NCBI GenBank assembly: GCA_964524145.1
Contig: CAZGCA010000019.1
Coordinates: forward strand, 4,133-68,132
Direction: 5' to 3'
Length of the DNA stretch: 64,000 nt
From: an uncultured bacterium
GTDB lineage: Bacteria > Hydrogenedentota > CAZGCA01
Positions 1,231 to 60,355 of this stretch are shown in pieces. The notes under the pieces are model-generated. The model saw only the letters and a program-made list of their open reading frames with translations. It was not told the origin of the DNA and did no database searches. The number at the start of each line of letters is the position of its first letter. The stretch's first letter is position 1. Position numbers and translations under genes: made by a program.

Positions 1231-3771
1231 TCATTTCTTGGGGTCGCGTTTGGCGGGCAGCTTCCAGTCGGGATGGTGTTCCTTGGCCCATTTGTCGCTG
1301 ACCTTGCCGCCAAAAAGGCTTCTCAAGCTGTGAGGATTCACGACTGCCCCGAGATAGATGTGAGCCAGCAACAGGAGAATAATCAACAACCCGGCGAGGT
1401 CGTGAACGGCGTAGAGGAACGCGGTCCTCGGATGATGCGTTCCTTTGTAGAAGTACATCAGGATACCGGTCGCGACAAGGACGAGCCCGAGAAGTATGAC
1501 GATGTATGCGAATATCTTCTGTCCCGCGTTAAACTTGCCGGCAGGAAGCTCCTGGTTGCCGCCGAAGTACCCGCCAAGGCCAAAAAGCCAGCGCACGTCG
1601 CCTTTGGCAGGTATGATGGCACGGAGCCAAAACAGCAGCGCAAGCAACAATGCCCCGCCTCCAACGTAGCCGATGATGCCGTGGAGGTCGCGCGCGCCCT
1701 GCCCGAGGGGGTCGTTTTCACCGAGCAGGAAGAAGAACCCGGTGACCGCGAGATATACCACTGACAGCATCAGTACAAGATGGGTCAGCCGTTCGTGGAG
1801 CCGAAACCGGACGACGTTCGGCACGTATTCCTTCCCGTCGCCGCGGGTGCCGAACAGGCAGAAATGGAGCACGATAACCAGCACAACTCCCAGCACGATC
1901 CATGGCGCAGCAGGTTTTAGCAGCCCCTCTCGCCGCGCCGAGGAGAACACGCTCGAGGCCGAGATCCCCATCATCTTGTGCATCGGGAGAGTGACGGGCT
2001 TTCCGTCCTCGCCGTACGGGTTGATCTTTGCCGCGGCAAAGAAGAACGGCGACTCGCTCGCGTGGCAGTCGTCGCAACCGCCCGCACCTAACGCTTCTCC
2101 GCGCGGTGCAACATTGTGTTCGAGCGCCCATAGAACCGGCCCGGATTGCTTGTGAAAGTAAGACTTCACGGTACCGTCCGTATTGGCTTCAAACACCTTC
2201 AATCCCTTGACAAGAACGGGATTAGGGTCCGCGAACCGTTTGCCGCGAAGCGTCTCTTTAAGGGCGCTTGCTATGGCGGCGATCTCATCACTGGTGTTGA
2301 TCTCCGGTTTCCCGTCACCGTTGTCGTCAAACTCCGCGAAGAGAGCCTGCTCCCTTCTGCGAATTATTTCGGGAGTCACCTTCTTGGGCTTCGAGTCCTC
2401 GACGGCTTTCATGACCATTTGGTCGAAGACGGCCTTGACCTCTTTTGGGAACAGGGGGTGGATGAGGTCGCCTTCCTTGTGTCCCCACCAGACAGGCAAG
2501 AGCATGTTGTAGGGACGTATCTTGCCGTCATCGTCTCTGGTGTACGTCGGCGTCCACTCTGCGACGTCGCCGGCAGCTTTCGCTGTGTCCGGAACCGGGC
2601 TAGTGAACGTTGTGCCCGTGGAATAGTCTATGACGTTCTTGGCAGCGATCTTCTTGTACGGAATGTGGCAAGTCTCGCACGCAATCATGTCGAGATGAAC
2701 CTGCGGCAGCCCGCGATGAACCATCTCGGGTGCGCCGAGGTCTCCCGTAGCGTGGCAATCCTCACATACGCGCATGCTCCCATCAAGGTCGTCGCGAAGC
2801 GTCAGGTTGTTGGTATCGCCTTTTGCGAAGTTGTGGTCAAGGTCGCCGGGATGGCAGTCGATACACCGGATCCCGGATTTTGTGTGCACACCTTCATTGT
2901 AGTGGTCGCCCCAGGTGGTGCCCGTCTTCTCGTAACCCGACTGGTCGTGGCAATGAGTGCAGCTCCGGTCGTCCGGCCGGGTGATGGGCAAATCGATTTT
3001 GCCGTCAACGTTGAACAGTCTGGCGTTGTAGTGGACGCGCGGCACTTCATTGTCCCTGACCGAGCCGGCTATGCCGCCGAGACCCGCTGCCGCCGTTGCC
3101 GCCCAGCGGAAGTTGCCCTTGAGCATCTGCCCGACACGTATGCCGTAGTTGTAGCCCTCACCCAGATGACAGATGAGGCAGTCAGCCTCGATAACGCCGC
3201 TCTCGTCCCAGCGTGCGCCGTAGTAGTCGCCGTCGAGGAGTTGTGCCAGCTCGCTGTCGGTTGTCTGGAGGTCGTCGTACCGGTGGTCGTTGCGGTCACG
3301 CTCGGCCCTGGCGCCCCCGGGATGGCAGATACCGCACTCCATAACCCACTCGTAGACGCCCATATCGGCGTGCGACGGGCTCGGGATATCTTTCGGAGCC
3401 AGTTGCCGGTTGTAGGTAAGATCGAACTTGCCGAACGGTCCGTCCGACAAGGTCCAGGGCTTATCTTTGCCGCCGAAGTCGTCGGTAAGGATGTCGGCGC
3501 CCATCTGAAAATGGTACCCGTCGGTAATGCGGTTGTAGTCGTGGCAGGCACCACACGTTCTGCGCGGGCTGTATGCAGCCGCCGTTTCAGGATCGGCGAC
3601 CGGATCGATGATAAGGCCGTAGTCGTCTCGCAGAAAGAACGGCGGACAGGATGCAGGCCTCAACCGTTCGGCAGCCTCCCCGGAACTCCCGTTCCCGTAT
3701 GCCGTTAGAAGAAATACAATACCAGTGACCGCGACCAACGCGGCGACAACCGTTCTTCCATACAGTCTCAT
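1231..3771 (-). CDS. Octaheme c-type cytochrome fused to a C-terminal diheme cytochrome b (HydC/FdnI-type) membrane domain; CbcL-like quinone-linked electron-transfer protein
   Basis: N-terminal signal peptide. Eight CxxCH motifs (CGACH, CGICH, CLICH, CTHCH, CIDCH, CEDCH, CETCH, CDDCH). C-terminal ~230 aa has four TM helices with conserved His ('HERLTHLV', 'HGIIGY', 'FNAGQK', 'HDLAGLLIILLLLAHIY') resembling the Ni/Fe-hydrogenase and formate-dehydrogenase cytochrome b subunit. Confidence 0.8.
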   Translation of the reverse strand: MRLYGRTVVAALVAVTGIVFLLTAYGNGSSGEAAERLRPASCPPFFLRDDYGLIIDPVADPETAAAYSPRRTCGACHDYNRITDGYHFQMGADILTDDFGGKDKPWTLSDGPFGKFDLTYNRQLAPKDIPSPSHADMGVYEWVMECGICHPGGARAERDRNDHRYDDLQTTDSELAQLLDGDYYGARWDESGVIEADCLICHLGEGYNYGIRVGQMLKGNFRWAATAAAGLGGIAGSVRDNEVPRVHYNARLFNVDGKIDLPITRPDDRSCTHCHDQSGYEKTGTTWGDHYNEGVHTKSGIRCIDCHPGDLDHNFAKGDTNNLTLRDDLDGSMRVCEDCHATGDLGAPEMVHRGLPQVHLDMIACETCHIPYKKIAAKNVIDYSTGTTFTSPVPDTAKAAGDVAEWTPTYTRDDDGKIRPYNMLLPVWWGHKEGDLIHPLFPKEVKAVFDQMVMKAVEDSKPKKVTPEIIRRREQALFAEFDDNGDGKPEINTSDEIAAIASALKETLRGKRFADPNPVLVKGLKVFEANTDGTVKSYFHKQSGPVLWALEHNVAPRGEALGAGGCDDCHASESPFFFAAAKINPYGEDGKPVTLPMHKMMGISASSVFSSARREGLLKPAAPWIVLGVVLVIVLHFCLFGTRGDGKEYVPNVVRFRLHERLTHLVLMLSVVYLAVTGFFFLLGENDPLGQGARDLHGIIGYVGGGALLLALLFWLRAIIPAKGDVRWLFGLGGYFGGNQELPAGKFNAGQKIFAYIVILLGLVLVATGILMYFYKGTHHPRTAFLYAVHDLAGLLIILLLLAHIYLGAVVNPHSLRSLFGGKVSDKWAKEHHPDWKLPAKRDPKK

Positions 3772-3944: not shown

Positions 3945-5327
3945 TCAGGCGTTGTAGAGGGACTTGTCGATCTCGATGCGGCGCCCTTCTCTTATCGCCT
4001 TGTTCGCTGTCATTGCGCATACAGTTGCATTCAGGCCAATCTGGACGTTGCAGTCCGGCTCGCGGTCCGTGCGTATGCAATCGAAGAAGTTCTCGAACTG
4101 CAACTGCTCGACGCGCTTCTCGATAGGCTCCGGGCTGACGGGTTCGCCCTCATCTTCCTGGGGTACATTGCTGAGGTCGTGCGACTCGCCGGACGTTATG
4201 ACGGTGGCAATCTTGCCTGCGAGCTTCTCTTTCTCGCCACGCGATCCCCAATCGAGCGTCGGAGCCGACCCTTCGCGGAAAAACAGCCCTTTGCCTTCGC
4301 GCAGGATGAATGTGCCGTGGTCGCCCATTATCTCCTCGGAAGCGCCGTCGTGCGCGTTGGCGCAGATCGACGAGTATATCGCCCGGATCTGGTAGGGTTT
4401 GCTCAGCTCGCCGTAGTCCTTTGCGCGTTCGTGTCGGCGGCTGTCAGGGTCAGGCACGTAAAACACGGCATTCTCCGGTTCTATGAGATACTCGTAGACT
4501 ACCTGGACGTTGTCCCAAACCTCGCGCCCGTCCTTCCAGTAGTCCACACCGCCCATACCTGTTACCGCCACGGGCAGAGAGTCGAATATCCAGTTGCAGA
4601 CGTCCATCTGGTGGCTCCCCAACTCGGTCATCAGACCACCGGAATACTCGTGATAGAGGCGCCAGTTTAGATGGCGCTCGAGATCCTTGATGCGGCCGCC
4701 GGGGTCTTTTTCGGGAACCGGTCGTCGCCAATCGTTGTTCCGGTGCCATTGGGCCCGGAAATGGTTTATCCTGCCCAGCACTTTCTCGTCGCGCGCGAGT
4801 TTGACGGCATGCTGGTAGGAGGGGTCGTAGTGACGCTGGTGGCCCACCTGCAACTTCAACTTCTTGCCGACCTCACGCACGGTCTTGGCCATCTGGTGTG
4901 CTTGCTCTATTGAGTAGGCCATGGTCTTCTCGCAGAACACGTGTTTGCCGGCCTGCATGGCGTCAATGCTGACCTGCGCGTGCAGATGCAGCGGCACAGT
5001 GACCACCACCGCATCGAGGTCGTCACGCTCGAGCATCTTGCGGTAGTCCACGTAGGTATCGGCTTTCTGGGCAAACTTCTTGCCGCCGTCGAGGTGGGGC
5101 TGATAGTTGTCACAGAGCGCGATAATCTCGCAGTCGTCGATCCGGAGCAACCCGGTGCGCATCAAGTGGCAGCCGCGTCCCCCGGTACCGACTATCCCCA
5201 CCGTAATCTTGTCGGCGGCCTTCGTCTCCGCAGCAGCCGATCTCGTCTTGGCCAAGCCCGCCGAGACGGCCGTTGCCACGACGCCCGTGTCCCTCAGAAA
5301 CTTCCGCCTGCTTACCTTGTCACCCAT
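3945..5327 (-). CDS. TAT-exported Gfo/Idh/MocA-family NAD(P)-dependent oxidoreductase
   Basis: Twin-arginine signal 'SRRKFLRDTGVVATAVSAGLA'. Rossmann motif 'ITVGIVGTGGRG'. 'CEKTMAYS' motif typical of the Gfo/Idh/MocA family. Confidence 0.8.
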   Translation of the reverse strand: MGDKVSRRKFLRDTGVVATAVSAGLAKTRSAAAETKAADKITVGIVGTGGRGCHLMRTGLLRIDDCEIIALCDNYQPHLDGGKKFAQKADTYVDYRKMLERDDLDAVVVTVPLHLHAQVSIDAMQAGKHVFCEKTMAYSIEQAHQMAKTVREVGKKLKLQVGHQRHYDPSYQHAVKLARDEKVLGRINHFRAQWHRNNDWRRPVPEKDPGGRIKDLERHLNWRLYHEYSGGLMTELGSHQMDVCNWIFDSLPVAVTGMGGVDYWKDGREVWDNVQVVYEYLIEPENAVFYVPDPDSRRHERAKDYGELSKPYQIRAIYSSICANAHDGASEEIMGDHGTFILREGKGLFFREGSAPTLDWGSRGEKEKLAGKIATVITSGESHDLSNVPQEDEGEPVSPEPIEKRVEQLQFENFFDCIRTDREPDCNVQIGLNATVCAMTANKAIREGRRIEIDKSLYNA

Positions 5328-5398
5328 AACTCATCTCTCCTTCTGAATCCATGTTGCTCGGATTGAGTATAGTTGCGTCACCCACATTGTACTAAATA

Positions 5399-5407
5399 AT
5401 TATACCA
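5399..5407 (-). promoter_or_regulatory. Extended -10 promoter element (TGgTATAAT) for the Gfo/Idh/MocA gene
   Basis: Minus-strand 'TGGTATAAT' about 70 nt upstream of ATG 5327. A GGAGAG RBS lies 8 nt before the start. Sits in an AT-richer 150-bp spacer. Confidence 0.35.
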
Positions 5408-5478
5408 CAAATCAACCACTTATTTCGAACGAAAAAACGGGCGGATTTCGGACCGGGTTTACCGGGTTCTCCACGCCG

Positions 5479-7821
5479 TCAGTCAAGGCCAAATCTCACG
5501 GTTCGCGGTTGTTCCCCATCGCCGTTTCGTACCACGAGAACCGCCTTCACTCCCGGATGCTTCTCACAGTACCGTTGTGCACCGTCTTGGCCCATCACGA
5601 AGAAGGCCGTCGAAAGAGCGTCGCTTTCTGTGCCGGTCGGCGCTATGGCAGAGGCGCTGAGCACGTTCTGGACGGGCATACCGGTGCGCGGGTCCATTAT
5701 GTGGCCATACACCTTTCCACCGATCTCGAAGAATTTCTCGAGGTTGCCGGAGGTGGACAAGGCGGCATCCTTGAGCGTGATTGTGTCGAGATGTTCGGAT
5801 TTGTTCATCGGGTCGCGGATCCCGACTTGCCACCCTTCCTCGCCGGGAGGCGTGCCGAGCGCGTAGATGCTGCTCGTGCCGGCGTCCACGAGAGCCGAGT
5901 CGATTCCGTGTTGTTTGAGCACCTCGACGGCCTGGTCCAGCGCGTAGCCTTTGGCGATTCCGCCGAGATCAATCTCGACATCGGGGGAATCGAACCTGAC
6001 GGTGAAGTTGTCGGCGTCGAGCAGGACATGATGTTGGCCCACCTTCTCGAGTACGGCGCCAAGCTCGTCCGTGCCGGGTATGCGTCCCTCGTCGCGGAAA
6101 AACCCCCACGCGCGCATGAGGGGTCCTACGGTGATGTCGAACGCGCCGCCGGTGTCTTTGTTTATCTTTGCAGCAAACTCCAAGAGCCCAAACAGCTCGG
6201 ATTCAGCCTTGACGGGTGCTGTTGCTGCCCGCGTGTTTATCCAGCTCACGTCGCTGCCGGTGTCGTAACGGTTGAGCTGGTCGTTGAGCAGGTCGATACG
6301 TTCGAAGACCTCCGTGGCGGCCTCGTGCAACTTCCATTCGTCGTCACCGTGAAGGATGAGCATGAACTCCGTGCCCATCGCCCTGTGAGTGGCCGTGTGT
6401 AAGGCCGGGGCCGAGACGGTCTCGGTCTGCGCGGGCGCCGCCAACGCGGCCACCTCAACCGCGGGCGGATTGAACCGCTTCTGAAGCTCCTGCCAGTTCT
6501 TCTGGAGGCCGAAGTACGCCGCCACGCTCAGCACAATAACCGACAAGCTCAGCATGACGTTCCAGAGAAGTCGCTTGCCGCCGCGCGGTGTCTCGTCGCC
6601 CATGTAGGACCTCTGGTTGAGCAGCACCATGAAGCAGACGACGGCGACCGGCATGAGCGGCGCAGCTAGGGTCGAAGCAGTGATCGCAGCGTACCACGGG
6701 AACTTGATTGCGACTCCTACGACGCCGACGGCCGGGACGAGCGAGAACCACCACCTGGCACGGCCGCGATGCTCGAACCCGAACATCTCGCACCCGATAA
6801 AGCCGGTCGCGAGCATGTGTGTGATGATGGTCGAGAAACCGATGGCGATCATCCCGAAGCCTATGAGCAGGAGCGACAACCCCTTGCCGAGGCTCGGCGC
6901 CAGCACGGGGACTATTTCGCGAATGTCGCGCACGACGTTTGTCGCGGCTTGCCCGTCCGCAGGCCCGATGGTGTTGGCAACCGCAATCATCATGAAGCTC
7001 GTCGCTATCAGGAACGGCACAAGCATCCCGCTTATCAGGTCGAAATAGGCCAGTTCCTTGTGCTCCTTGCCCCAGTTCTTGTTGAGCAGCGAGTAAGGGT
7101 ACAGGAACACCATGTTGATACCGACCGCCGCCGCCACGCCTCCGACAATGGGTTTGATAGCGCGTGGATCGAGCCCCTGGCCGCCCAGGATGTCCTGTAA
7201 GAACGCGATGCCCGTGAAACCCAGGAACAGCCGTTTCCATTGAATGCCGCTCGATATCGCCACGATAGCGAACGCCACAACGATGGACCACACCATCGTT
7301 TTGACCGCGAGTTCGTAAATCTTGAGGCCCCTGGCACCCGCATGGTAGAGATAGACAATCACGCATGCCGAGCAGAGAACGACCGCGCCGATGCCCGCAC
7401 GACCGGCCACACTGTCCAGCGACACGCCCGCACCTTCCGCCAGCGAAACAACGCCGTTGGCCGTCAGCGAGTACTGCGGAATGTGCCAGAGCACCGTAGC
7501 GATCAAAGCGCTCCCGCCCCAGAGGATTGCAAGGGCCGGATGGAGCCGTTCCCAGAACACCTTGTACGGGCGTTGCTGGGTGTGGCAGGTCTGTTTCGCG
7601 ACGGACGCAAGCACGTAGCACCCGAGGATAATGGCCAGGGGTTGTACCCAGAGCAGCTTGTACCCGAGCAGCGAACCCATCACCACGCACGAGGCGACCG
7701 ATCCGCCGCCCAACGTCATCGCGCTCTGAAGGTAGCCGGGACCTGTCAGCCGCATGTACAGCCGAACGCGTTTGAGCGGCGGCAACTCCCTGGCGCGCAG
7801 GAGTGTCTCTTTTTCGTCCAT
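5479..7821 (-). CDS. Fusion protein: Nramp-superfamily (divergent MntH-like) membrane transporter core fused to a C-terminal ApbE/Ftp FAD:protein FMN transferase domain
   Basis: N-terminal ~440 aa has 11-12 TM helices with the Nramp-like start '...LTGPGYLQSAMTLGGGS' (lacks the canonical DPGN/MPH metal site). C-terminal ~330 aa carries ApbE motifs 'IDLGGIAKGYALD', 'SGNLEKFFEIGGKVYGHIMDPRTGMPV' and 'ESDALSTAFFVMG'. Confidence 0.8.
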   Translation of the reverse strand: MDEKETLLRARELPPLKRVRLYMRLTGPGYLQSAMTLGGGSVASCVVMGSLLGYKLLWVQPLAIILGCYVLASVAKQTCHTQQRPYKVFWERLHPALAILWGGSALIATVLWHIPQYSLTANGVVSLAEGAGVSLDSVAGRAGIGAVVLCSACVIVYLYHAGARGLKIYELAVKTMVWSIVVAFAIVAISSGIQWKRLFLGFTGIAFLQDILGGQGLDPRAIKPIVGGVAAAVGINMVFLYPYSLLNKNWGKEHKELAYFDLISGMLVPFLIATSFMMIAVANTIGPADGQAATNVVRDIREIVPVLAPSLGKGLSLLLIGFGMIAIGFSTIITHMLATGFIGCEMFGFEHRGRARWWFSLVPAVGVVGVAIKFPWYAAITASTLAAPLMPVAVVCFMVLLNQRSYMGDETPRGGKRLLWNVMLSLSVIVLSVAAYFGLQKNWQELQKRFNPPAVEVAALAAPAQTETVSAPALHTATHRAMGTEFMLILHGDDEWKLHEAATEVFERIDLLNDQLNRYDTGSDVSWINTRAATAPVKAESELFGLLEFAAKINKDTGGAFDITVGPLMRAWGFFRDEGRIPGTDELGAVLEKVGQHHVLLDADNFTVRFDSPDVEIDLGGIAKGYALDQAVEVLKQHGIDSALVDAGTSSIYALGTPPGEEGWQVGIRDPMNKSEHLDTITLKDAALSTSGNLEKFFEIGGKVYGHIMDPRTGMPVQNVLSASAIAPTGTESDALSTAFFVMGQDGAQRYCEKHPGVKAVLVVRNGDGEQPRTVRFGLD

Positions 7822-8116
7822 TCCGATGTTATCTCTCCTTCACTACCCTGTTTCCCCACTGCCAGCTTCAGCTATAACGATGCCGTTCGAGTATACCGAC
7901 GTTTCGGGACAGATGCAAGAGGGCCCGCCGGTCAGAATTGTGGGAGAAAAAGGACGGCTGCTGAGTGGCATGCTGTCAGGTCTGTAAGGAGCGAGTGGGG
8001 ACATCCTTGCAGGCGCTACAGGGAATACCGGATGCGGAATGTCGTGACGAAGGCGTCCCCACATCGGCAAATCCGGTATTGCAGTGGAGCTGTGGTGAGC
8101 AATGCGGTTTAGATTG

Positions 8117-8165
8117 AGCGCCAGGCTGTCGGTGCACAAATCGTTGGAACCGACCGCCTGGCGCT
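8117..8165. other. Strong stem-loop: 17-bp stem (16/17 paired) with a 15-nt loop
   Basis: AGCGCCAGGCTGTCGGT ... ACCGACCGCCTGGCGCT. Lies between the lipoprotein gene stop (8254) and the Nramp-ApbE start (7821) on the minus strand. Could be a terminator or a 5'-UTR element. Confidence 0.45.
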
Positions 8166-8253
8166 GATTGTCCAGGGTTATCACCCTCTTGCTGCTCCGA
8201 GCATCTCCCGCACCCGCCGGTGCAAGGCTCGGACAGCCAATCTAGGCAGTGCT

Positions 8254-8676
8254 TTAATACGTAACTGTAATTGTACCCTTGGCCGTGAGAGGTACAAGAC
8301 CTGCTTCCGTTTCGACCTTGAGTTCTTCGCCGTCCCCGTCGTACGCGTTGAACGTCCAATGGAACTCGCCGGGAGGAGCCTCAAAAGGAACCTCGAACTC
8401 GATCGAATAAACGCCGTCGTTGGCCGTCACGTCGCCTTCCGTGCCATCATCGTACAGGTCCAGGGTAATCTCCGGATACTCATCGACAGTAACAGTGACT
8501 GAATCGACGATGTTCTCCGGATCGATCACCTGCACGGAGATGAGAGCCGTATCTCCGGGCGCAACCTCTAAAGGCTTGACCCCTGCCTCAACCATGGCAA
8601 GCTTCTGTCCGGCACAGCCGGCGAACAGAATAGCCAAACATGCCAGAGTGCACCACGTCAGTGATGTCTTCTTCAC
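8254..8676 (-). CDS. Small secreted lipoprotein (Ig-like/beta-sandwich, unknown function)
   Basis: Lipobox 'ILFAGC'. GTG start at 8676, chosen because it is 8 nt from the GGAAGGAGG RBS (the track start at 8685 abuts the RBS). D/E/T-rich beta-strand pattern. Confidence 0.55.
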   Translation of the reverse strand: MKKTSLTWCTLACLAILFAGCAGQKLAMVEAGVKPLEVAPGDTALISVQVIDPENIVDSVTVTVDEYPEITLDLYDDGTEGDVTANDGVYSIEFEVPFEAPPGEFHWTFNAYDGDGEELKVETEAGLVPLTAKGTITVTY

Positions 8677-8756
8677 TCGATTCACCTCCTTCCCTAACGT
8701 TTGTGAAATCGTTGCTACAGCGCACAGTTGCCTCGACTGCTCCCACCACGGTGCTA

Positions 8757-21054: not shown

Positions 21055-22731
21055 ATGGTCGAGTGCCACCTAAAGATTCTTGACGGACTGTTCCAGGGCC
21101 ACGAGTATCTGATCTCAGAGCGGGCAACGATTGGTCGCGGCTCGGACAATCACATCCAGCTCGCGGACGAGCTCGTGTCCAGACACCATGCAGAGATTCT
21201 GCCGGAAGGAGACGGTTTCGTACTCCGCGATACAGAGAGCGCGAACGGCACGTTTGTCAACGGCCAACGCATTCAGGAAGCCACACTTTCGCCCGGCGAT
21301 ACGGTGAAAATCGGCGAAACAACGCTCAAGTTTCAGGCCAAGACACCGTCTGAGCCGGCTACGGATGCCGACACCTCCTTCGTATCGATGGTTGGCGAGG
21401 AGTTGGTGTCTGAGACAGAGATGGTCGAGACGGAAGTACCCGTGTCGGAGTTTACGATACCGGTGCTGGACATCGAGCGGAAGCGTCTCGATATACTGTT
21501 GCAGATCTGCCAGGAGATCCCGGCCGAACGGAACTTTGACAAGCTTTTGGACACGATCCTGGGGAACGCCTTTGAGATCGTTCCGGCTCACCGCGGTGCG
21601 GTCCTGCTGAAGGACGAGGTGTCGGGCGAGCTTACGCCTTCCTGCACGCGTATCCGCGACAAAGAGAAGGCAGGCGAGATGGTGATCAGTTCGACCGTCG
21701 TCAACAGGATAGTCCGGGAAAAGGTTGGGATGATCATCGCCGATGCCGCGAGGGACAAGCAGATTCAGGACGCCTCCAGCATCAGGCTCGAGAGAATCCG
21801 CTCAGCGATGTGTGTTCCGATCATGTATCACGGCGAGGTGCTGGGGGCGATCTACGTCGATTCGACAGGCACCATCGAGCCGTTCCGGGAACGAGATCTC
21901 CAACTGCTGATCGCCATGGCGGGGCCTGCGGCCACAGCCATCAGCAACGCCCGGTATTTGAAGACGGTCGAAGAATACGCCCGGCGGCTCGAGCGGTCGC
22001 GCGACGAGACGCTGGCGGTCGTTGCGAACACGATAGAAGGGCGAGACCACTACACCGTCGGTCATACCTGGAGGGTGACAAAGTTCGCGATGGCCTTGGC
22101 GAGACATATGGGCTGGGACGAAGGGACGCTGAAGGAGGTTGAGGTAGGCGGTGTGCTGCACGATATCGGCAAGATAGCCGTCGACGACGCCATCCTGCGC
22201 AAACCGGCGCCGCTCGATGACGAAGAGTTTGCCCAGATGAAGATACATTGCAGCAAGGGCGCAAGCATGTTGAAAGACTGCCGCGAGCTCGAGAGCGCCA
22301 TCCCTTACGTTCTGTATCACCACGAGCGATACGACGGTCGGGGGTACCCGTTCGGGCTCGCCGGCGAGGAGATTCCCCGCGAGGGGCGGCTCCTGGCTAT
22401 TGCCGATTGCTTCGATGCGATGACAAGCAACAGGCCGTACCGGAAGGCGCTCCCCTCCGAGACGGCTATTGCCGAGATTGAAGAACGCCGGGGCGAACAG
22501 TTCGACCCCGGGTATGCCGAGGCCTTCGTCGAGATCTACAAGGCAGGAAAGATCAGTTCCATCATGCAGGATTATGCCAAAGGAGAGATGTCGACATGCT
22601 GCCCCTTCTGCAGCACGTTCATACGGATTGTCGAGCAAGACCTCGAAACCAAGATCGTCGTCTGCACTGTCTGCCACCATCAGGCAAAGTTGGAGAAGGT
22701 CGGCACGGAGTGGATGAGCGAGTTGGTGTAG
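21055..22731 (+). CDS. FHA-GAF-HD-GYP c-di-GMP phosphodiesterase with C-terminal Cys4 zinc ribbon
   Basis: FHA: 'ATIGRGSDNHIQLADELVSRHHAEI...ANGTFVNGQRI'. HD: 'LHDIGKIAV'. GYP: 'HHERYDGRGYPFGL'. C-terminal 'CCPFCST...CTVCHH'. Confidence 0.85.
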   Translation: MVECHLKILDGLFQGHEYLISERATIGRGSDNHIQLADELVSRHHAEILPEGDGFVLRDTESANGTFVNGQRIQEATLSPGDTVKIGETTLKFQAKTPSEPATDADTSFVSMVGEELVSETEMVETEVPVSEFTIPVLDIERKRLDILLQICQEIPAERNFDKLLDTILGNAFEIVPAHRGAVLLKDEVSGELTPSCTRIRDKEKAGEMVISSTVVNRIVREKVGMIIADAARDKQIQDASSIRLERIRSAMCVPIMYHGEVLGAIYVDSTGTIEPFRERDLQLLIAMAGPAATAISNARYLKTVEEYARRLERSRDETLAVVANTIEGRDHYTVGHTWRVTKFAMALARHMGWDEGTLKEVEVGGVLHDIGKIAVDDAILRKPAPLDDEEFAQMKIHCSKGASMLKDCRELESAIPYVLYHHERYDGRGYPFGLAGEEIPREGRLLAIADCFDAMTSNRPYRKALPSETAIAEIEERRGEQFDPGYAEAFVEIYKAGKISSIMQDYAKGEMSTCCPFCSTFIRIVEQDLETKIVVCTVCHHQAKLEKVGTEWMSELV

Positions 22732-22922: not shown

Positions 22923-25900
22923 ATGGCCGAAAGACAGAGATTGTTGGTTGTAATCGCCATCGTGCTGGTCGTTGCAGCGTCCGGGGTCGTGTTGCGCGTG
23001 GGGCGGCACGCAGGTGTCGAGCCGCGCCGAGCGCCTGCTGTGGTAACGGCTGGCAGGCTGGACGAGGATGCGCTGCAACAGACGTCGTGGTGGGCCGAGG
23101 CACAGGAGAACGTTCGGGAATCCGAGTACGCGGTCACGCGGCAGGAGAGGTCTGTCGTCGAAGGCAAGCCGGGCGGGCTTCATGCCGCGAACCGCGCGCA
23201 GAATCTTCGGGCCTACTTTCGGAGGGACGGCGTTGAAGTGGTCCCGCGAACGGGCGATTCCGCCGCGTGGGAATGGAGATGGAAGCTCTCAAGCTACGGA
23301 CGAAGCGACAACACTATCCCCGTTGGCGAGGTGGAGCCCACGCATGAGAGGGATCGGGTCGAGTACGACCGTCCGGGTATCACGGAATGGTACAAGAACA
23401 CGGAAGAAGGGATCGAACAGGGTTTCACCATCCCCGAACGCCTTCAAGGAGATGGCCGCCTTGTTATCGAAGGTATCGTCGGGGCAAGTCTGCATGCTGT
23501 ATCGCCCGATTCGGGCGACCGCGTCCGGTTTCTTGACGGGAACAACGTCGAAGTCCTTCGCTACAGCAGCTTGAAAGCCTTCGACGCGATCGGCAGAGAG
23601 CTGCCCGCCGTGATGCAGCTTGCCAGGAACACCGTTCAGCTCGTGGTCGATGACACCAATGCAATCTATCCGGTCACCGTTGACCCTATCATGACGAGCC
23701 CGCAGTGGATTGCGGGGAGCAACCAGTGGGACGCCAATTCCGGGTGGTCTGTTTCGGGTGCAGGTGATGTGAACGGCGACGGATACAGCGACATAATCGT
23801 CGGGGCGTATCAGTACGACAACGGCCAGGCAGACGAGGGGGCTGCATTCGTGTTTCTGGGCTCCGAGTCCGGAATCGTAGGAGGTCCCCCGGCCGACGCG
23901 GAGGCCGTGCTCGAGTCGAACCAGGCGAATGCGTATTTCGGCTATAGTGTGTCGTGCGCCGGTGACGTCAACGGTGACGGCTATTCCGATGTGATAGTAG
24001 GGGCTGCCGGCCAGGCATACGACATATATGATTTCTCGCCATCAATGACCTACAGTTATGGCGCGTACGACAATGGCGAGGCGAACGAAGGCGGGGCGTT
24101 TGTGTTTCTGGGCTCCCCGTCTGGGATCGTAGGGAGTTCCCCAGGCGATGCCGCCGCCGTGTTGGAATCGAACCAGCCGTACGCGTTTTTCGGCTGGAGC
24201 GTATCGGGCGCAGGTGACGTAAACGGTGACGGGTACGCCGACGTGATCGTCGGGGCGCACCGATACGACCAGGGCCAGACAGATGAAGGCGGGGCGTTCG
24301 TGTTTCTGGGGTCCGCGTCCGGCATAGTGGGGAGTTCTCCGGCCGATGCCGCAGCCGTGTTGGAATCGAACCAGGCGTATGCCTATCTCGGCTGGAGCGT
24401 ATCGTACGCAGGTGACGTAAACGGCGACGGGTACGCAGACGTAATCGTCGGGGCGTATCAGTACGATCACGCCCAGACGGACGAGGGTTCGGCCTTTGTG
24501 TTCCTCGGTTCGGTGTCCGGAATCGTCGGGACCAACCCCGGCAATGCAGCGACGGCGTTGGAGTCCGACAATGAGGCGGCGCAATTCGGATACAGCGTAT
24601 CGGGGGCGGGGGACGTGAACGGTGATGGATACGCTGATGTCATTGTAGGGTCGCCTTACGACGAATACAATCCCGTTGATCCCTATGAGGTGTTGATCGG
24701 ACGCGCGTTCGTGTATCTCGGCAACTCCTCGGGATTGGAAACGGGCCCCGTGTGGACGGCCCAGGGTGTCGACAAAGAGTGCTTTGCATGGGCCGTTTCC
24801 ACAGCCGGAGACATCAACGGAGACGGGTGTGCCGACGTTATCGTCGGCGCCCCTGTCCGGAACGCGTTCCACGGTCCGGAAGACCCCGTACCTGCGGGCC
24901 GTGTGCTGGCATATCTCGGGAACTCGAGCGGTGTCTCTGCTGATCCGGTTTGGAGCGTTGAGAGCGATACGGAAGAAGCCATGCTGGGTTATAGCGTATC
25001 GAGCGCGGGCGACGTCAACGGTGACGGGTACTCCGACATCATCGTCGGCGCCCCTCTCCACAGCATTACGAAATCGAATGAGGGCGGGGCGCTTGTGTTT
25101 CATGGTGGGTGTGAACCTCCTGCCGCGAGACCGGTATGGAGGATTGAGGATTTCGTGGCGTCCGACAACTACGGGGCAGCCGTTGCAGCATTGGGAGACA
25201 TAAACGGAGACGGCTATGACGATGTAACCGTCGGCGACCCCGCCTTCCCCAATTCCGACCCCTCCTCTGAAGGGGCCGGGCGAGTGTATGTGTACCTGGG
25301 AAACAACACAGGGTTGGAGAGCGGGCCGGTATGGAGTGCGCCGGGAGGCTCGTCGGGTTCTGCCGTCGGCGGGGCCGTTTCCGGTGCCGGCGACGTTGAC
25401 GGCGACGGCCACCCCGAACTCATCATTGGAGACCCCGGCTTTGACAATCGTGGCCGTGTCCTTGTCTACGGCTGGAACGGATCGGACCTCTCACCAGTGT
25501 GGAGCGCCGAAGGCGTTGAAGCTGAAGCAGAGTTCGGCGCGTCCGTCGCAGGAGTTGGAGATGTGGACGGGGACGGGTACGCAGATGTGCTGGTCGGCGC
25601 GCCGCTATACGACGACGGGTTGTCCGACCAAGGCCGTGTCTTTGCCTACTTTGGGAGCCCGACGGGCCTCAGCACCTCGGCCAAATGGGTTGCGAGTCCG
25701 GCCCAGGCGGGCGCACGGTTCGGTACCTCGGTTGCGGGAGCGGGCGACGTCAATGGTGACGGCTATGCGGATGTCATCATCGGGGCACCATTTTGTGACG
25801 GTGCATACCCCAATGTCGGGCGTGCGTGCGTGTACCTCGGGAGCGCAGCCGGCCTGCCGGACTCCCCGGCGTGGACTGTTGACGGAGAACAGGAGGACGC

Positions 25901-52027: not shown

Positions 52028-53581
52028 CTATCGTAAAGAGTCTGCGACGCCCGCGAATCTGGCTTTAAGCGCAGGGTATAGGGCGCAGTATTCTTTGTAG
52101 TACCGTGCGTAGAGAGACCGTGTCTTCTTGCGGGGGGACATCCTGCTGACAACCTTGATGCTGGCGTCGCAGGCTTCCTCGACGGTCCGGAAAACCTTTG
52201 CGCCCACTCCCGCGAGAAGAGCCGCGCCGTATGCCGGTCCTTCGTCAACGTTGATAGTCACGAGCGGCAGGTCGTTTACATCAGCCTGGATCTGGCGCCA
52301 CAGCTTGCTTCTTGCGCCACCTCCCGAAGCCCGAACCTCGTCCATCGGAACGCCCATAGACTTAATTATCTCGAACGAGTCTTTCAGCCCGAATGCAACC
52401 CCTTCAAGGACGCTCCGCGCAAAATGCGCCTTGGTATGTCGCAAATGGATGCCGAAAAAGACGCCTTTTGCGTTGGCATCGGCGTGCGGGGTGCGTTCGC
52501 CCGTAAGATACGGCAGGAATACTAATCCCTCACACCCGGCAGGCGCCGAAGCCGCCTCCTCTATTATGAGTTCATACGGATCGCGTCCCTCAAGAGATGC
52601 GACCTCCTTCTCCGCCCCACAAAACGTGTCGCGGTACCAGCGCAACGAACCCCCTGCCGACAGCATTACGCCCATGACGTGCCACTTGCCCGGGACCGCA
52701 TGACAGAACGTATGCACTCGTCCTTTCGGGTCGAGCAGCACCTTGTCCGAGAAGGCAAAGACCACGCCGGACGTACCGACCGTAGAGGATACGATGCCCC
52801 GCCTGACTATACCCGTGCCGACCGCGCCCGCAGCCTGGTCGCCTCCGCCGCCGACAACAGGCGTGCCGGCCACAAGCCCCGTCTGCTCGGCAGCCTTCTT
52901 CGAGATTGTCCCTGTGACAACGGTTGACTCCTCGCAACTCGGCAGAAACTCCAGCGGTATATCGAGCTTCGAAAGGATCTCCTTGCTCCAGCCGCGCTTT
53001 CTTACGTCGAGCAAGAGCGTGCCGGACGCGTCTGAGACCTCGGTGGCATATTCGCCCGTCAACAAGAACCGGATATAGTCCTTTGGAAGCAGTACCTTCT
53101 GAACCTTGTCATAGTTCCTCGGCTCGTGCTCGCGTAGCCAGAGTATCTTGGGAGCCGTAAAGCCGGTCAGCGCAGGGTTGCATGCCAGCTCGATGAGTTT
53201 CCGCTTTCCGACTTTTCTCGTGATCGCATCACATTGGGGTTGGGTGCGCTGGTCGCACCATAGAATCGCGGGTCGTATCACGCGGTTGTCCCGGTCCAGA
53301 AAGACCGAGCCGTGCATCTGTCCCGTAAGTCCGACACCCGCGACCTCGGCAGCCTTCACCTTGCGAGATGCAACCACCCTACGCAACGTCAGCTTTGTGG
53401 CCTCCCACCAGTCAGCAGGTTCTTGCTCCGCCCAACTCGGTTTCGGGCTGTAGAGAGGGTACTCCTCCGTAGCACTGGCCACAAGTGTGCCACGGGCATC
53501 GATGACGACCGCACGCGCACCGGTCGTTCCAACATCGATGCCTATCAAATACCTACCTTGTGATCTCCGATGTCCCACCAT
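52028..53581 (-). CDS. FGGY-family carbohydrate kinase (xylulokinase-like)
   Basis: 'YLIGIDVGTTGARAVVID' and 'GGGARS' motifs. 517 aa. Confidence 0.8.
   Translation of the reverse strand: MVGHRRSQGRYLIGIDVGTTGARAVVIDARGTLVASATEEYPLYSPKPSWAEQEPADWWEATKLTLRRVVASRKVKAAEVAGVGLTGQMHGSVFLDRDNRVIRPAILWCDQRTQPQCDAITRKVGKRKLIELACNPALTGFTAPKILWLREHEPRNYDKVQKVLLPKDYIRFLLTGEYATEVSDASGTLLLDVRKRGWSKEILSKLDIPLEFLPSCEESTVVTGTISKKAAEQTGLVAGTPVVGGGGDQAAGAVGTGIVRRGIVSSTVGTSGVVFAFSDKVLLDPKGRVHTFCHAVPGKWHVMGVMLSAGGSLRWYRDTFCGAEKEVASLEGRDPYELIIEEAASAPAGCEGLVFLPYLTGERTPHADANAKGVFFGIHLRHTKAHFARSVLEGVAFGLKDSFEIIKSMGVPMDEVRASGGGARSKLWRQIQADVNDLPLVTINVDEGPAYGAALLAGVGAKVFRTVEEACDASIKVVSRMSPRKKTRSLYARYYKEYCALYPALKARFAGVADSLR

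Positions 53582-59292: not shown

Positions 59293-59300
<8 letters not shown>
58419..59300 (-). CDS. DUF58 protein (MoxR-associated, VWA-like)
   Basis: 'GLSVEFADYRDYVYGDDPRFVDWNVFGRLDRLFLKLF...ILVDTSGSM'. Confidence 0.8.
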
Positions 59301-60300
<1,000 letters not shown>

Positions 60301-60355
60301 TTCGTTTCTCCTCAACTCTGTCGGCTACGTGATACGAACGAAGAGGTTCCTTCGT

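What the first reader, a model, noticed from the sequence alone, without database searches (positions are those of the whole stretch)
5479..7821. Nramp-superfamily transporter core fused in one polypeptide to an ApbE flavin transferase
ApbE/Ftp normally works as a separate periplasmic or lipoprotein enzyme that flavinylates NqrC, RnfG, NosR or EET proteins. Here an unmistakable ApbE domain sits at the C-terminus of an 11-12-TM Nramp-like permease. That permease lacks the canonical DPGN/MPH metal-binding residues. A non-metal substrate is therefore plausible, for example flavin export coupled directly to extracytoplasmic flavinylation. I do not recall this architecture being characterised.
Basis: partly seen in the sequence, partly recalled or inferred. 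Interest (0 to 1): 0.7.

Follow-up and report, generated by a model that had tools for sequence, protein, structure and literature searches.

The report
Nramp-like permease fused to ApbE
A real, recurrent gene fusion tethers a flavin-attaching enzyme (ApbE) to the outer face of a permease of the Nramp family that has lost its metal site, and the enzyme most probably flavinylates the secreted sugar dehydrogenase encoded next door rather than receiving exported flavin from the permease.

Summary
Window 5479-7821 (-) is one uninterrupted 780-aa ORF. It has an 11-helix Nramp-fold domain (aa 1-450), a disordered linker and a complete ApbE domain predicted to be periplasmic. The metal signature DxxN/AxxM is replaced by GxxS/AxxG. 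At least 62 protein clusters carry the same fusion, mainly from Hydrogenedentota and Planctomycetota.

The informative partner is the next gene, a Tat-exported Gfo/Idh/MocA dehydrogenase. It has a flexible loop (VITSGES; VITSG[GA]T in relatives) that resembles the flavinylation motif.

Relatives of this dehydrogenase, sampled independently, have an apbE gene directly upstream in 41 of 45 loci. That ApbE usually has no Nramp domain. A sister clade with a different loop has apbE in 0 of 13 loci. Multihaem/b-type cytochrome or YceI-like genes often follow.

Permeases with the same core motifs also occur alone. Their contexts are varied, partly sugar-catabolic, and lack apbE. Twice the permease is unfused in an operon whose ApbE appears cytoplasmic.

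Best reading: ApbE matures a flavinylated periplasmic sugar dehydrogenase that feeds the respiratory chain. The permease probably moves a small organic solute of that pathway. Flavin export is possible but weakly supported. Nothing here has been tested experimentally.

The parts
5479..7821 (-). Whole fusion gene, 780 aa: Nramp-like permease, linker and ApbE
   Evidence: Single ORF. Two Pfam domains. AF2 model with pLDDT 89.5. Identical protein on an independent contig.
6472..7821 (-). Nramp-fold permease domain, aa 1-450, with 11 TM helices, N-terminus inside and C-terminus outside
   Evidence: PF01566 at 87.9 bits. Foldseek TM 0.77-0.82 to EleNRMT and DraNramp. Helix map and K+R bias of 14 inside against 5 outside. 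Coordinates.
7699..7710 (-). TM1 break, GGGS (aa 38-41), in place of the metal-binding DPGN
   Evidence: Alignment to human NRAMP1/2 and EleNRMT. The helix breaks at aa 37-38 in the model. Near-invariant in 62 fused and 55 stand-alone homologues.
7111..7134 (-). TM6 break, AAAVGINM (aa 230-237), in place of AxxMPH
   Evidence: The helix breaks at aa 234 in the model.
6406..6471 (-). Flexible Ala/Pro-rich linker, aa 451-472
   Evidence: pLDDT below 50 at aa 455-469 and pTM 0.59, so no fixed interface between the domains is predicted. Length and sequence vary among homologues.
5482..6405 (-). ApbE (FAD:protein FMN transferase) domain, aa 473-780
   Evidence: PF02424, E 4e-79. Full-length alignment to FmnB 7esa, Ftp 4xdt and ApbE 3pnd, with the AKG, TSG, HIxDPxTG and DALSTA motifs and the Tyr of NRYDTGSD present. 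Foldseek TM 0.83-0.87. 47% identical to the stand-alone ApbE proteins encoded upstream of Gfo in L088 and L090.
5386..5428 (-). Two overlapping sigma-70-like promoter matches (one with TG-extended TATAAT) in the 151-bp spacer before the Gfo gene
   Evidence: These are consensus matches only: 2 were found and 2.5 are expected by chance. In L002 the two genes overlap by 4 nt instead.
3945..5327 (-). Tat-signal Gfo/Idh/MocA oxidoreductase, 460 aa, the probable ApbE client
   Evidence: Pfam. SRRKFL twin-arginine motif, GTGGRG Rossmann motif and EKT motif. AF2 pLDDT 85.2. Best fold matches are Z. mobilis GFOR and sugar 3-, 2- or 1-dehydrogenases. Lies directly downstream of the fusion in 13 of 15 distinct fused loci, and 3.5 kb downstream in one more.
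4182..4202 (-). Flavinylation-like loop motif VITSGES (Gfo aa 376-382). Ser382 is the candidate FMN attachment site.
   Evidence: Position 382 is Thr in 101, Ser in 19 and Ala in 1 of 121 family members. Gly380 is present in 84 of 121. The loop has low confidence, pLDDT 50-57.
1231..3771 (-). Eight-haem c-type cytochrome fused to a membrane b-type cytochrome (Ni_hydr_CYTB, with a weak DUF4405 match), the probable electron outlet to the quinone pool
   Evidence: Pfam. Eight CxxCH motifs. The same gene follows the Gfo gene in L002, L088, L090 and many metagenome loci.

Best explanation
The gene encodes an inner-membrane protein with two parts.

The first part is an 11-helix permease of the Nramp (LeuT) fold. 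It belongs to an undescribed subfamily whose substrate site has lost every metal ligand: the signature is GxxS/AxxG instead of DxxN/AxxM.

The permease's periplasmic C-terminus carries a complete ApbE flavin transferase on a flexible tether of about 20 residues.

The inferred client of the ApbE domain is the product of the next gene. This is a Gfo/Idh/MocA sugar dehydrogenase that is exported folded, presumably with bound NAD(P), by the Tat system. ApbE would attach FMN to Ser382 in a flexible surface loop.

The tethered flavin would take the hydride from the enzyme-bound NAD(P)H and pass single electrons on. In the window the acceptor is the downstream eight-haem c / b-type membrane cytochrome. 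In other genomes a YceI-like lipoprotein sits in that position. Periplasmic sugar oxidation would thereby feed the quinone pool.

The permease is most probably a carrier for a small organic solute of the same pathway, the sugar or its oxidised product. On this reading the fusion serves to anchor ApbE and express it together with the pathway. It is not a coupled export-and-flavinylate machine.

Shown here: the architecture, the folds, the predicted topology, the loss of the metal site, the gene order across loci and the motif statistics.

Inferred: flavinylation of the Gfo protein, the electron path and the permease substrate.
For: Architecture and topology.

The ApbE catalytic motifs are intact.

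The ApbE-Gfo link is independent of the permease:
- Three of three Gfo homologues with the TSGxT loop, looked up on long contigs, have a stand-alone apbE directly upstream. Two of them also have the multihaem/cytochrome b gene downstream.
- In 80 metagenome loci retrieved with the Gfo alignment, apbE lies directly upstream on the same strand in 24 of 27 loci with an [ST]Gx[ST] loop and in 17 of 18 with an LDAxx[ST] loop. It is found in 0 of 13 loci of the sister clade with an xPTRR loop (Fisher p 7.5e-10).
- The fused ApbE domain is 47% identical to these stand-alone ApbE proteins.
- The Gfo gene is the only constant neighbour. The cytochrome and YceI-like genes vary or are absent.

Loop site:
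- The target position is Ser or Thr in 120 of 121 family members, and [ST]Gx[ST] occurs in 71 of 121.
- The closest relatives read VVTSGAT. L023 has a perfect DMSSGAS.
- The loop insertion is present in all 18 same-strand Gfo genes of fused loci and in none of 24 Gfo genes beside stand-alone permeases.
- The loop is predicted to be flexible.

Precedents in the literature:
- ApbE sites have evolved as inserted loops or tails in Flavodoxin_4 and FMN_red proteins, and apbE clusters often carry membrane b-type cytochromes such as DUF4405 (PMC11334425).
- Substitutions at the Asp, Gly and Ala positions of the motif are tolerated (PMC12052999).

Permease:
- The TM1 and TM6 motifs are the same in fused and stand-alone forms.
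- The two forms are interleaved in a neighbour-joining tree.
- Stand-alone members sit in sugar operons. L024 has a GH88-like gene, Gfo, a xylose-isomerase-like TIM barrel and an SDR. L025 has a PfkB kinase and a 3-keto-disaccharide hydrolase.
- L091 and L099 carry apbE, Gfo, a lactonase-like gene, the Nramp-like gene and a TIM-barrel gene, unfused, and their ApbE lacks a signal peptide.
- A DeoC-family aldolase gene, sometimes with an FGGY kinase gene, lies divergently upstream in many loci.
Against: Nothing has been tested biochemically.

Weaknesses of the Gfo flavinylation claim:
- The window's own motif is degenerate. It has no Asp at position 1, Glu in place of Ala, and Ser rather than Thr.
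- The clade without apbE (xPTRR) keeps a Thr at the aligned position, so that residue could have a structural role instead.
- The closest Gfo relative in the metagenome sample (L093, 65% identity) has the cytochrome gene but no apbE within 8 kb upstream.
- The contingency counts include closely related sequences, so the p value overstates independence.
Whether an FMN on Ser382 can reach the nicotinamide could not be checked.
- Gfo/Idh/MocA enzymes are not known to use flavin.

Weaknesses of the permease claim:
- The substrate rests on gene context only, and that context is mixed. Of 33 tight same-strand neighbours of stand-alone genes, about 10 are sugar- or oxidoreductase-related and the rest are unrelated.
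- A gene fusion is in itself an argument for a direct functional link between the permease and ApbE. That favours the flavin-export rival.

In the window a promoter-like site separates the fusion gene from the Gfo gene.
Confidence: 0.5

Rival explanations
1. The Nramp-like domain exports FAD, or another flavin, across the inner membrane. The tethered ApbE uses it on the spot to flavinylate periplasmic clients.
For: - Fusion of a transporter to an enzyme whose substrate must cross the membrane is a classic sign of a functional link.
- All metal ligands are replaced by small residues (Gly, Ser, Gly). That would enlarge the central cavity.
- The fused ApbE is on the periplasmic side, where FAD has to be supplied.
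- apbE clusters of Firmicutes often carry the ECF flavin transporter (PMC11334425).
- The permease domain is more conserved than the ApbE domain: 60-70% identity against 38-48%.
Against: - The same permease core is common with no apbE within 7-10 kb (L003-L007, L024, L025, L086, L087).
- No ApbE, FMN_bind or riboflavin gene appears among 33 tight neighbours.
- Most Gfo-linked, signal-bearing ApbE proteins have no Nramp gene nearby.
- In L091 and L099 the co-operonic ApbE lacks a signal peptide, so FAD export is not needed there.
- No FMN riboswitch was found.
- The linker is disordered and no docked interface is predicted.
- From general knowledge: no LeuT-fold carrier is known to move a 785-Da dinucleotide. 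Known flavin carriers are ECF, MATE (Bfe, PMC3551548), DMT, Pnu, MFS and ABC proteins.
Confidence: 0.12
2. The permease domain no longer transports anything. It serves only as a membrane anchor that replaces the usual lipid anchor of ApbE.
For: - ApbE is normally membrane-anchored (PMC12052999).
- The stand-alone Gfo-linked ApbE proteins use a simple N-terminal hydrophobic anchor.
- The tether is flexible.
Against: - The TM1 and TM6 unwound-region motifs and about 70 other positions are invariant or nearly so across fused proteins.
- Those motifs are identical to the ones in stand-alone permeases, which must have a function of their own.
- The permease half is more conserved than the ApbE half.
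- Fused and unfused forms interleave in the tree. A degenerate anchor would not be expected to return to a free-standing gene.
Confidence: 0.08
3. The domain is still a cation transporter. It could carry Mg2+, which ApbE requires, Mn2+, or Cu for periplasmic redox proteins.
For: - It scores above the Pfam Nramp cut-off.
- Its nearest solved folds are metal and Mg2+ transporters.
- ApbE is Mg2+-dependent (PMC12052999).
- Some stand-alone members are followed by a secreted protein with an amicyanin-like CDVHPWM copper motif.
- Conserved Cys45, Met35, Met237, His113, Met336 and Cys344 lie within the permease domain.
Against: - The TM1 Asp is kept in all three described clades, NRAMP, NRAT and NRMT (PMC8806188). 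Here it is Gly, and the Asn and Met ligands are also gone.
- The NCBIfam MntH and Nramp models score far below their cut-offs: 33 against 430, 18 against 272 and 13 against 50 bits.
- No metal regulator, chaperone or riboswitch was seen in the neighbourhoods.
- From general knowledge: periplasmic Mg2+ is not limiting.
Confidence: 0.08
4. The fusion is an artefact, for example a sequencing frameshift or a gene-calling error that joined two genes.
For: Two homologous loci (L022, L023) show the ApbE part split into two tblastn segments, so disrupted copies exist in MAGs.
Against: - The window has one continuous frame.
- An identical protein comes from an independent assembly.
- At least 62 clusters from NCBI, JGI, ENA and Logan have both domains in frame, despite linkers that vary in length.
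Confidence: 0.01

Closest known systems
ApbE / Ftp / FmnB FAD:protein FMN transferases (PF02424)
   Same: Full-length domain, same fold (TM 0.83-0.87) and conserved catalytic motifs. Predicted to be extracytoplasmic and held at the membrane.
   Different: It is anchored by fusion to the C-terminus of an 11-TM permease, not by a lipoprotein signal or a single helix. Its inferred client is a Gfo/Idh/MocA enzyme, not an FMN_bind, NqrB/RnfD or DUF2271 domain.
Trypanosomatid fumarate reductase with an N-terminal ApbE domain (reviewed in PMC12052999)
   Same: It is a precedent for ApbE occurring as a domain of a larger polypeptide that is functionally tied to flavinylation.
   Different: There ApbE is fused to its own target and acts inside the cell. 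Here it is fused to a permease, and the target is a separate secreted protein.
SLC11 carriers: NRAMP/MntH (DxxN-AxxM), NRAT (DxxN-AxxT), NRMT (DxxG-TxxA/T)
   Same: LeuT-type fold, 11 helices as in EleNRMT and DraNramp, and breaks in TM1 and TM6 at the substrate site.
   Different: The signature is GxxS/T-AxxG. The Asp common to all three described clades is absent. The NCBIfam MntH and Nramp cut-offs are not reached. No metal-related context was found.
Listeria EET locus: FmnB (ApbE) with the ECF flavin transporter (FmnA/RibU); Shewanella Bfe (MATE) FAD exporter
   Same: Both are systems in which flavin has to be delivered outside the cytoplasm for ApbE or for electron shuttling, and in Listeria the transporter gene is co-localised with apbE.
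   Different: The transporter families are unrelated, and their flavin transport has been demonstrated. Here no evidence ties the permease to flavin apart from the fusion itself.
Zymomonas mobilis glucose-fructose oxidoreductase (GFOR) and sugar 3-dehydrogenases of the Gfo/Idh/MocA family
   Same: Best structural matches to the neighbouring enzyme. The window enzyme has a Tat signal and a Rossmann motif. From general knowledge, GFOR is exported by Tat with tightly bound NADP.
   Different: GFOR regenerates its cofactor with a second sugar. The window enzyme family carries an extra loop with a flavinylation-like site and is encoded with apbE and cytochromes.
ApbE substrates that arose by insertion: Flavodoxin_4 and FMN_red (PMC11334425)
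   Same: A flavinylation-like motif in an inserted loop or tail of an otherwise ordinary enzyme, encoded beside apbE and membrane b-type cytochromes.
   Different: Those parent folds already bind flavin non-covalently. Gfo/Idh/MocA enzymes bind NAD(P), so the flavin would be a second, new cofactor.

Membership tests
ApbE (FAD:protein FMN transferase, PF02424) | Full-length match to the family profile above its curated cut-off | tested here: met
   266.4 bits against a cut-off of 25.6, covering profile positions 1-265 of 266.
ApbE (FAD:protein FMN transferase, PF02424) | ApbE fold | tested here: met
   Foldseek TM 0.83-0.87 and rmsd 2.2-3.8 A to 7esa, 4xdt, 1vrm, 6nxi and 3pnd.
ApbE (FAD:protein FMN transferase, PF02424) | Catalytic and FAD/Mg-binding residues: the His of HIxDP, the Asp of DALST, the Ser of TSG, and Tyr rather than Asn at the position that switches between transferase and hydrolase | tested here: met
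   HIMDPRTG, SDALSTA, STSG, GIAKG and NRYDTGSD align with FmnB, Ftp and ApbE. Which residue is the switch position is assigned partly from memory of the Ftp N55Y work.
ApbE (FAD:protein FMN transferase, PF02424) | Extracytoplasmic location | tested here: inconclusive
   Predicted only: 11 TM helices, K+R 14 inside against 5 outside, and no hydrophobic segment after aa 450. EleNRMT also has 11 helices. No experiment was done.
ApbE (FAD:protein FMN transferase, PF02424) | FMN transferase activity on a Ser/Thr of a client protein | not testable with these tools
   Needs co-expression and mass spectrometry.
Nramp / SLC11 (PF01566) | Profile match above the Pfam gathering score, and the LeuT-type fold | tested here: met
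   87.9 bits against 29.8. TM 0.77-0.82 to 7qia and 6d91 over 419-434 aligned columns.
Nramp / SLC11 (PF01566) | Metal-binding signature DxxN in TM1 and AxxM in TM6 | tested here: not met
   GGGS and AAVG at the aligned positions. Conserved in that form in 117 homologues.
MntH / Nramp as defined by NCBIfam (NF001923, TIGR01197, NF037982) | Score above the curated cut-off | tested here: not met
   33.1 against 430, 18.2 against 272.5 and 13.1 against 50 bits.
NRMT (Nramp-related Mg2+ transporters) | DxxG-TxxA/T signature with the TM1 Asp retained | tested here: not met
   The Asp is replaced by Gly. Signature taken from PMC8806188.
Known flavin transporters (ECF-RibU/FmnA, MATE Bfe/YeeO, RibN, PnuX, RfuABCD) | Homology to one of these families | tested here: not met
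   Only the Nramp and ApbE profiles match the protein in Pfam and NCBIfam at E up to 0.001. Two further NCBIfam hits, unrelated to flavin transport, have E of 0.14 or more.
ApbE flavinylation substrates (applied to the neighbouring Gfo protein) | Motif D-x-x-[S/T]-G-A-[S/T] with a terminal Ser/Thr | tested here: inconclusive
   The window has V-I-T-S-G-E-S. Positions 4, 5 and 7 fit and positions 1 and 6 do not. Relatives have [ST]G[AG]T, and L023 has DMSSGAS. Substitutions at the Asp, Gly and Ala positions are reported as tolerated.
ApbE flavinylation substrates (applied to the neighbouring Gfo protein) | Encoded next to apbE | tested here: met
   41 of 45 loci of the motif-bearing clades against 0 of 13 of the sister clade. 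Directly downstream in 13 of 15 distinct fused loci.
ApbE flavinylation substrates (applied to the neighbouring Gfo protein) | Extracytoplasmic protein carrying covalent FMN | not testable with these tools
   A Tat signal is present. Covalent flavin was not examined.
Gfo/Idh/MocA oxidoreductases (neighbour) | N-terminal Rossmann domain with GxGxxG, the EKP-type motif and the C-terminal alpha/beta domain | tested here: met
   PF01408, PF02894 and PF22725. GTGGRG and EKT. Fold matches to GFOR and others.

The most novel reading that the evidence does not exclude
The Nramp-like domain is a FAD (or flavin) exporter of the LeuT fold that hands its cargo to the ApbE tethered at its exit. ApbE then flavinylates the Tat-exported Gfo/Idh/MocA dehydrogenase. 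This would be a new substrate class for the SLC11 family. It would also answer, for these phyla, how FAD reaches periplasmic ApbE.
Probability: 0.12. Interest if true: 0.9.

Novelty: new variant of a known kind. Interest (0 to 1): 0.62.

Why it matters
Three things follow if the best reading is right.

1. ApbE flavinylation would gain a new class of client. It would be an NAD(P)-type sugar dehydrogenase given a covalently tethered FMN so that it can hand electrons to cytochromes or quinone in the periplasm. That is a simple way to connect sugar oxidation outside the cytoplasm to respiration. The apbE-Gfo gene pair is widespread in Hydrogenedentota, Planctomycetota, Verrucomicrobiota, Acidobacteriota and Armatimonadota, phyla in which the many Tat-signal Gfo/Idh/MocA genes are mostly unexplained.

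2. The SLC11/Nramp family would gain a large fourth branch, with at least 553 loci in species-representative genomes. This branch has no metal site and probably carries an organic solute.

3. The fusion gives a direct experimental handle on an open question, how FAD reaches periplasmic ApbE. One protein can be tested for flavin export and for flavinylation in the same assay, and either outcome is informative.

Tried and rejected
- A strict flavinylation regular expression ([DNS][GSAN]x[ST]GA[ST]) over all six frames of the window found only one hit, in an unlikely ORF at about 40.6 kb. The real candidate site is too degenerate for it.
- Canonical D..[ST]GA[ST] was searched in all ORFs of 68 apbE-containing loci. 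It turned up an NqrC-like DGLSGAT just after the Rossmann helix of the Gfo protein in a few loci. This was rejected as the family's site because only 2 of 121 members have it and the window's protein does not.
- Riboswitches were searched upstream of the gene and in eight homologous loci. No FMN, Mn or Mg riboswitch was found. The only hit, a weak gntR-DTE match inside the coding region (E 0.13), looks like chance.
- The plan was to measure the distance between the Gfo loop and the NAD site, and to look at ApbE-permease docking, in the AF2 models. Coordinates are not exposed to the scripting environment, so only pLDDT, secondary structure and fold matches could be used.
- My own greedy ORF calling in GC-rich loci produced spurious antisense ORFs (clusters c3, c9, c35). 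Cluster c9 turned out to be the antisense of a real YceI-like lipoprotein gene. Counts that depend on those calls were not used for the conclusions.
- The multihaem cytochrome and the YceI-like lipoprotein were considered as the ApbE client. They were set aside because they vary or are absent, whereas the Gfo gene is constant.
- Longer "stand-alone" homologues (P0068, P0077) were checked as possible split fusions. They are plain permeases in unrelated contexts.
- A genome-wide co-occurrence test of the permease with ApbE could not be run, because the cap on genome-contig scans had been reached.

Full report
**1. The observation**

Window 5479-7821 (minus strand) is a single ATG-to-stop ORF of 780 codons. 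Pfam places Nramp (PF01566) on aa 42-410. The match spans almost the whole profile (E 9e-25, 87.9 bits against a cut-off of 29.8). ApbE (PF02424) lies on aa 482-761 (E 4e-79).

An AlphaFold2 model built from 38 fused homologues is confident in both halves (mean pLDDT 89.5). Only aa 455-469 fall below 50. The pTM of 0.59 indicates two well-folded domains with no fixed mutual orientation.

Foldseek matches the C-terminal half to FmnB, Ftp and ApbE crystal structures (TM 0.83-0.87). It matches the N-terminal half to EleNRMT and D. radiodurans MntH (TM 0.77-0.82).

The model has eleven membrane helices, with TM1 broken at G38-G40 and TM6 at G234. No hydrophobic segment follows residue 450. Lys+Arg counts are 14 in the loops predicted cytoplasmic and 5 in those predicted periplasmic. 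EleNRMT also has 11 helices (PMC8806188). The ApbE domain is therefore predicted to be outside the cytoplasm.

The fusion is not an artefact. An identical protein sits on an independently assembled JGI contig. At least 62 clusters from four data sources carry both domains in frame.

**2. The permease half is an Nramp-fold protein without a metal site**

Aligned to human NRAMP1/2 and EleNRMT, DPGN is GGGS and AxxMPH is AAVGIN. The described clades have the signatures DxxN-AxxM (NRAMP), DxxN-AxxT (NRAT) and DxxG-TxxA/T (NRMT) (PMC8806188). This protein has GxxS-AxxG, so the Asp common to all three is missing. NCBIfam's MntH and Nramp models score far below their cut-offs.

The replacement motifs, GPGYMQSAMTLGGGS and AAAVGINMxFLYPYSLL, are almost invariant in 62 fused and 55 stand-alone homologues. 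The site is therefore under selection, but for something other than a divalent metal.

A pattern scan of one genome per species found at least 553 loci of this subfamily. They come from Hydrogenedentota, Planctomycetota, Verrucomicrobiota, Armatimonadota (including Fervidibacter sacchari PD1), Acidobacteriota, Anaerolineales and Rhodothermales.

**3. The neighbourhood**

Downstream on the same strand lie two genes. The first is a 460-aa Gfo/Idh/MocA oxidoreductase with a twin-arginine signal (SRRKFL). The second is an 846-aa protein with eight CxxCH haem motifs fused to a b-type membrane cytochrome (Ni_hydr_CYTB, with a weak DUF4405 match).

Among the 80 best genome loci, 15 distinct ones carry the fusion. 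In 13 of them the Tat-Gfo gene follows directly, and in one more it lies 3.5 kb away. L017 is the only locus with none. In L002 the two genes overlap by 4 nt.

After the Gfo gene comes either the multihaem/b cytochrome (window, L002) or a lipoprotein with a YceI-like domain. A DeoC-family aldolase gene often lies divergently upstream.

**4. The probable ApbE client**

The Gfo proteins of fused loci share an insertion that is otherwise poorly conserved. Within it is one small conserved motif, which reads ATVITSGESHD in the window.

All 18 same-strand Gfo genes of fused loci have the insertion. None of the 24 Gfo genes beside stand-alone permeases has it.

In 120 database homologues plus the window protein, the motif is mostly VITSG[GA]T. 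The last position is Thr in 101, Ser in 19 and Ala in 1 of 121. [ST]Gx[ST] occurs in 71 of 121. The closest relatives read VVTSGAT, and L023 has a perfect DMSSGAS.

The published motif is D-x-x-[S/T]-G-A-[S/T], with FMN attached to the last residue. Replacing the Asp has little effect. G-to-A and A-to-V substitutions still allow about half the normal flavinylation (PMC12052999).

The loop is predicted to be flexible, with pLDDT 50-57 in a model whose core exceeds 90. The fold is that of Z. mobilis GFOR and of sugar and inositol dehydrogenases.

**5. An independent test of the ApbE-Gfo link**

I sampled the Gfo family without reference to the permease.

- Three of three homologues on long contigs have a stand-alone apbE directly upstream. 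Two of them also have the multihaem/b cytochrome downstream and a DeoC gene, once with an FGGY kinase gene, divergent upstream.
- In 80 metagenome loci retrieved with the Gfo alignment, apbE sits directly upstream on the same strand in 24 of 27 loci whose loop is [ST]Gx[ST]. It does so in 17 of 18 whose loop is LDAxx[ST]. It does so in 0 of 13 loci of a sister clade with an xPTRR loop (Fisher p 7.5e-10). The loci are not phylogenetically independent, so the p value is only indicative.
- The window's ApbE domain is 47% identical to the stand-alone ApbE proteins of L088 and L090.

The conserved unit is therefore apbE plus Gfo. The permease is an optional N-terminal addition to ApbE.

Precedents exist. 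ApbE sites have arisen as inserted loops or tails in Flavodoxin_4 and FMN_red proteins, and apbE clusters often carry membrane b-type cytochromes (PMC11334425).

I found no paper that links ApbE with Gfo/Idh/MocA or with Nramp. The supplement of the 2021 flavinylation survey, which is stored truncated, lists a Gfo gene only as an unclassified neighbour and has no Nramp entry.

**6. What the permease does**

Several results argue against a role dedicated to flavin export.

- Stand-alone permeases with identical core motifs are common and have no apbE nearby.
- In a neighbour-joining tree the fused and stand-alone forms are interleaved, with at least 17 parsimony changes. The tree has no support values.
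- In two operons (L091, L099) apbE, Gfo, DUF6807, an SGL lactonase-like gene, an Nramp-like gene of this subfamily and a xylose-isomerase-like TIM-barrel gene lie in that order. In L091 several of these genes overlap, which suggests translational coupling. The ApbE there has no signal peptide and would act before Tat export, so no FAD export is needed.
- No flavin, Mn or Mg riboswitch was found.
- No flavin or metal gene occurs among 33 tight same-strand neighbours.

Some results favour an organic solute of sugar metabolism.

- L024 reads GH88-like, Gfo, TIM barrel, SDR, permease.
- L025 reads PfkB kinase, permease, 3-keto-disaccharide hydrolase.
- The Rhodothermales loci have SDR and sulfatase genes.
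- About 10 of the 33 tight neighbours are sugar- or oxidoreductase-related. The rest are heterogeneous.

The substrate remains an inference.

**7. Mechanism proposed**

The steps are marked as shown or inferred.

- Shown: a membrane protein with an ApbE domain predicted to be periplasmic; a Tat-signal NAD(P)-type dehydrogenase with a conserved Ser/Thr loop encoded beside it; a haem c / haem b membrane protein next.
- Inferred: ApbE uses FAD to attach FMN to Ser382 of the Gfo protein.
- Inferred: after sugar oxidation, the tethered FMN swings into the active site and takes the hydride from the bound NAD(P)H. It then releases single electrons to the multihaem domain, and from there to the b haems and quinone.
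- Inferred: the permease carries the sugar or its product, which cytoplasmic kinase and aldolase genes in related loci would then process.

The fusion would then give anchoring, stoichiometry and proximity. I put about 0.95 on the architecture and topology. I put about 0.7 on the Gfo protein being the client and about 0.4-0.5 on the permease being a pathway solute carrier. For the statement as a whole I put 0.5.

**8. Rivals**

It is favoured by the fusion itself, by the enlarged site and by the open question of how FAD is supplied.
- A pure anchor gets about 0.08.
- A residual cation carrier gets about 0.08.
- An artefact gets about 0.01.

**9. Comparison and novelty**

The ApbE half is an ordinary family member in an unusual setting. 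The N-terminal half belongs to the Nramp fold and Pfam family, but it fails the defining metal-site test of NRAMP, NRAT and NRMT. It should not be called a metal transporter.

The whole is a new variant of flavinylation-based extracytoplasmic electron transfer. It has two unreported elements: a Gfo/Idh/MocA client and a permease-anchored ApbE. Automatic annotation already labels such proteins "FAD:protein FMN transferase" or "ApbE/NRAMP family transporter". I found no characterised role.

Noticed in passing
L003:11480-12196; L004:11446-12126 (also L005): Directly after some stand-alone Nramp-like genes lies a secreted protein of about 230 aa. It has an amicyanin-like type-1 copper motif (CDVHPWM, with an upstream His) and a weak CarboxypepD_reg match. 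A Tat-Gfo gene of the C2 type follows. This may be a copper-based counterpart of the cytochrome-linked module.
   Followed up: partly
L091:7050-13760; L099 (same gene order): An operon with tightly spaced genes, some overlapping in L091: apbE without a signal peptide, Tat-Gfo with the loop VLDASKT, DUF6807, an unknown gene, an SGL lactonase-like gene, an Nramp-like permease and a xylose-isomerase-like TIM barrel. In L091 a GHMP kinase gene follows further downstream. It suggests that some Tat-exported Gfo enzymes are flavinylated in the cytoplasm before export.
   Followed up: partly
L093-L172 (class B loci, e.g. L103, L109, L112, L129, L140, L149): ApbE genes upstream of Gfo proteins with the LDAxx[ST] loop consistently lack any N-terminal hydrophobic segment. 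Those upstream of [ST]Gx[ST]-loop Gfo proteins have one. There appear to be two variants of the pair, one with a cytoplasmic ApbE and one with a periplasmic ApbE, each with its own loop motif.
   Followed up: partly
L095 and L097 near 8001-8200; L156 and L157: A perfect NqrC-type motif (DGLSGAT or DGLTGAS) lies just after the Rossmann helix of the Gfo protein in a few loci. It could be a second flavinylation site in those proteins. It is absent from the window's protein and from 119 of 121 relatives.
   Followed up: partly
L100, L108, L113-L139, L161, L165 (xPTRR loop clade): A sister clade of the Gfo family keeps a Thr at the aligned loop position inside a Pro/Arg-rich motif (EPTPTRR or ARPTRR). 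None of its 13 loci with enough upstream DNA has an apbE nearby. The role of that Thr is unexplained.
   Followed up: no
window 8254-8685 (-) and 7822-8253: A small predicted lipoprotein (143 aa, lipobox LFAGC) with no family match lies upstream of the fusion gene. It is followed by about 430 bp with no convincing ORF and no Rfam hit.
   Followed up: partly
window 22923-31643 (+) and 34293-39176 (+): Two giant secreted-type proteins. One is 2906 aa with many FG-GAP repeats, a CarboxypepD_reg domain and a C-terminal dockerin. The other is 1627 aa with right-handed beta-helix repeats.
   Followed up: no
window 21055-22731 (+): A protein with FHA, GAF and HD_5 (HD-GYP-like) domains. Genes for simpler HD_5 proteins recur next to the DeoC/permease locus in Hydrogenedentota genomes (L002-L007, L010, L090).
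   Followed up: no
window 52028-53581 (-): An FGGY-family sugar kinase gene lies 45 kb from the locus. In L090 an FGGY kinase gene sits beside DeoC, directly upstream of the apbE-Gfo-cytochrome cluster.
   Followed up: no
L086:3355-4443; L091:5360-6481; two loci: URO-D family (uroporphyrinogen decarboxylase-like) genes recur near members of the permease subfamily. No explanation is offered.
   Followed up: no
L009:5036-5089: An Acido-Lenti-1 sRNA match above the gathering score (41.7 against 37 bits) lies between the two Gfo paralogues of a fused locus.
   Followed up: no
window 56578-63238 (-): A cluster of BatA/VWA-domain genes of the aerotolerance-operon type.
   Followed up: no
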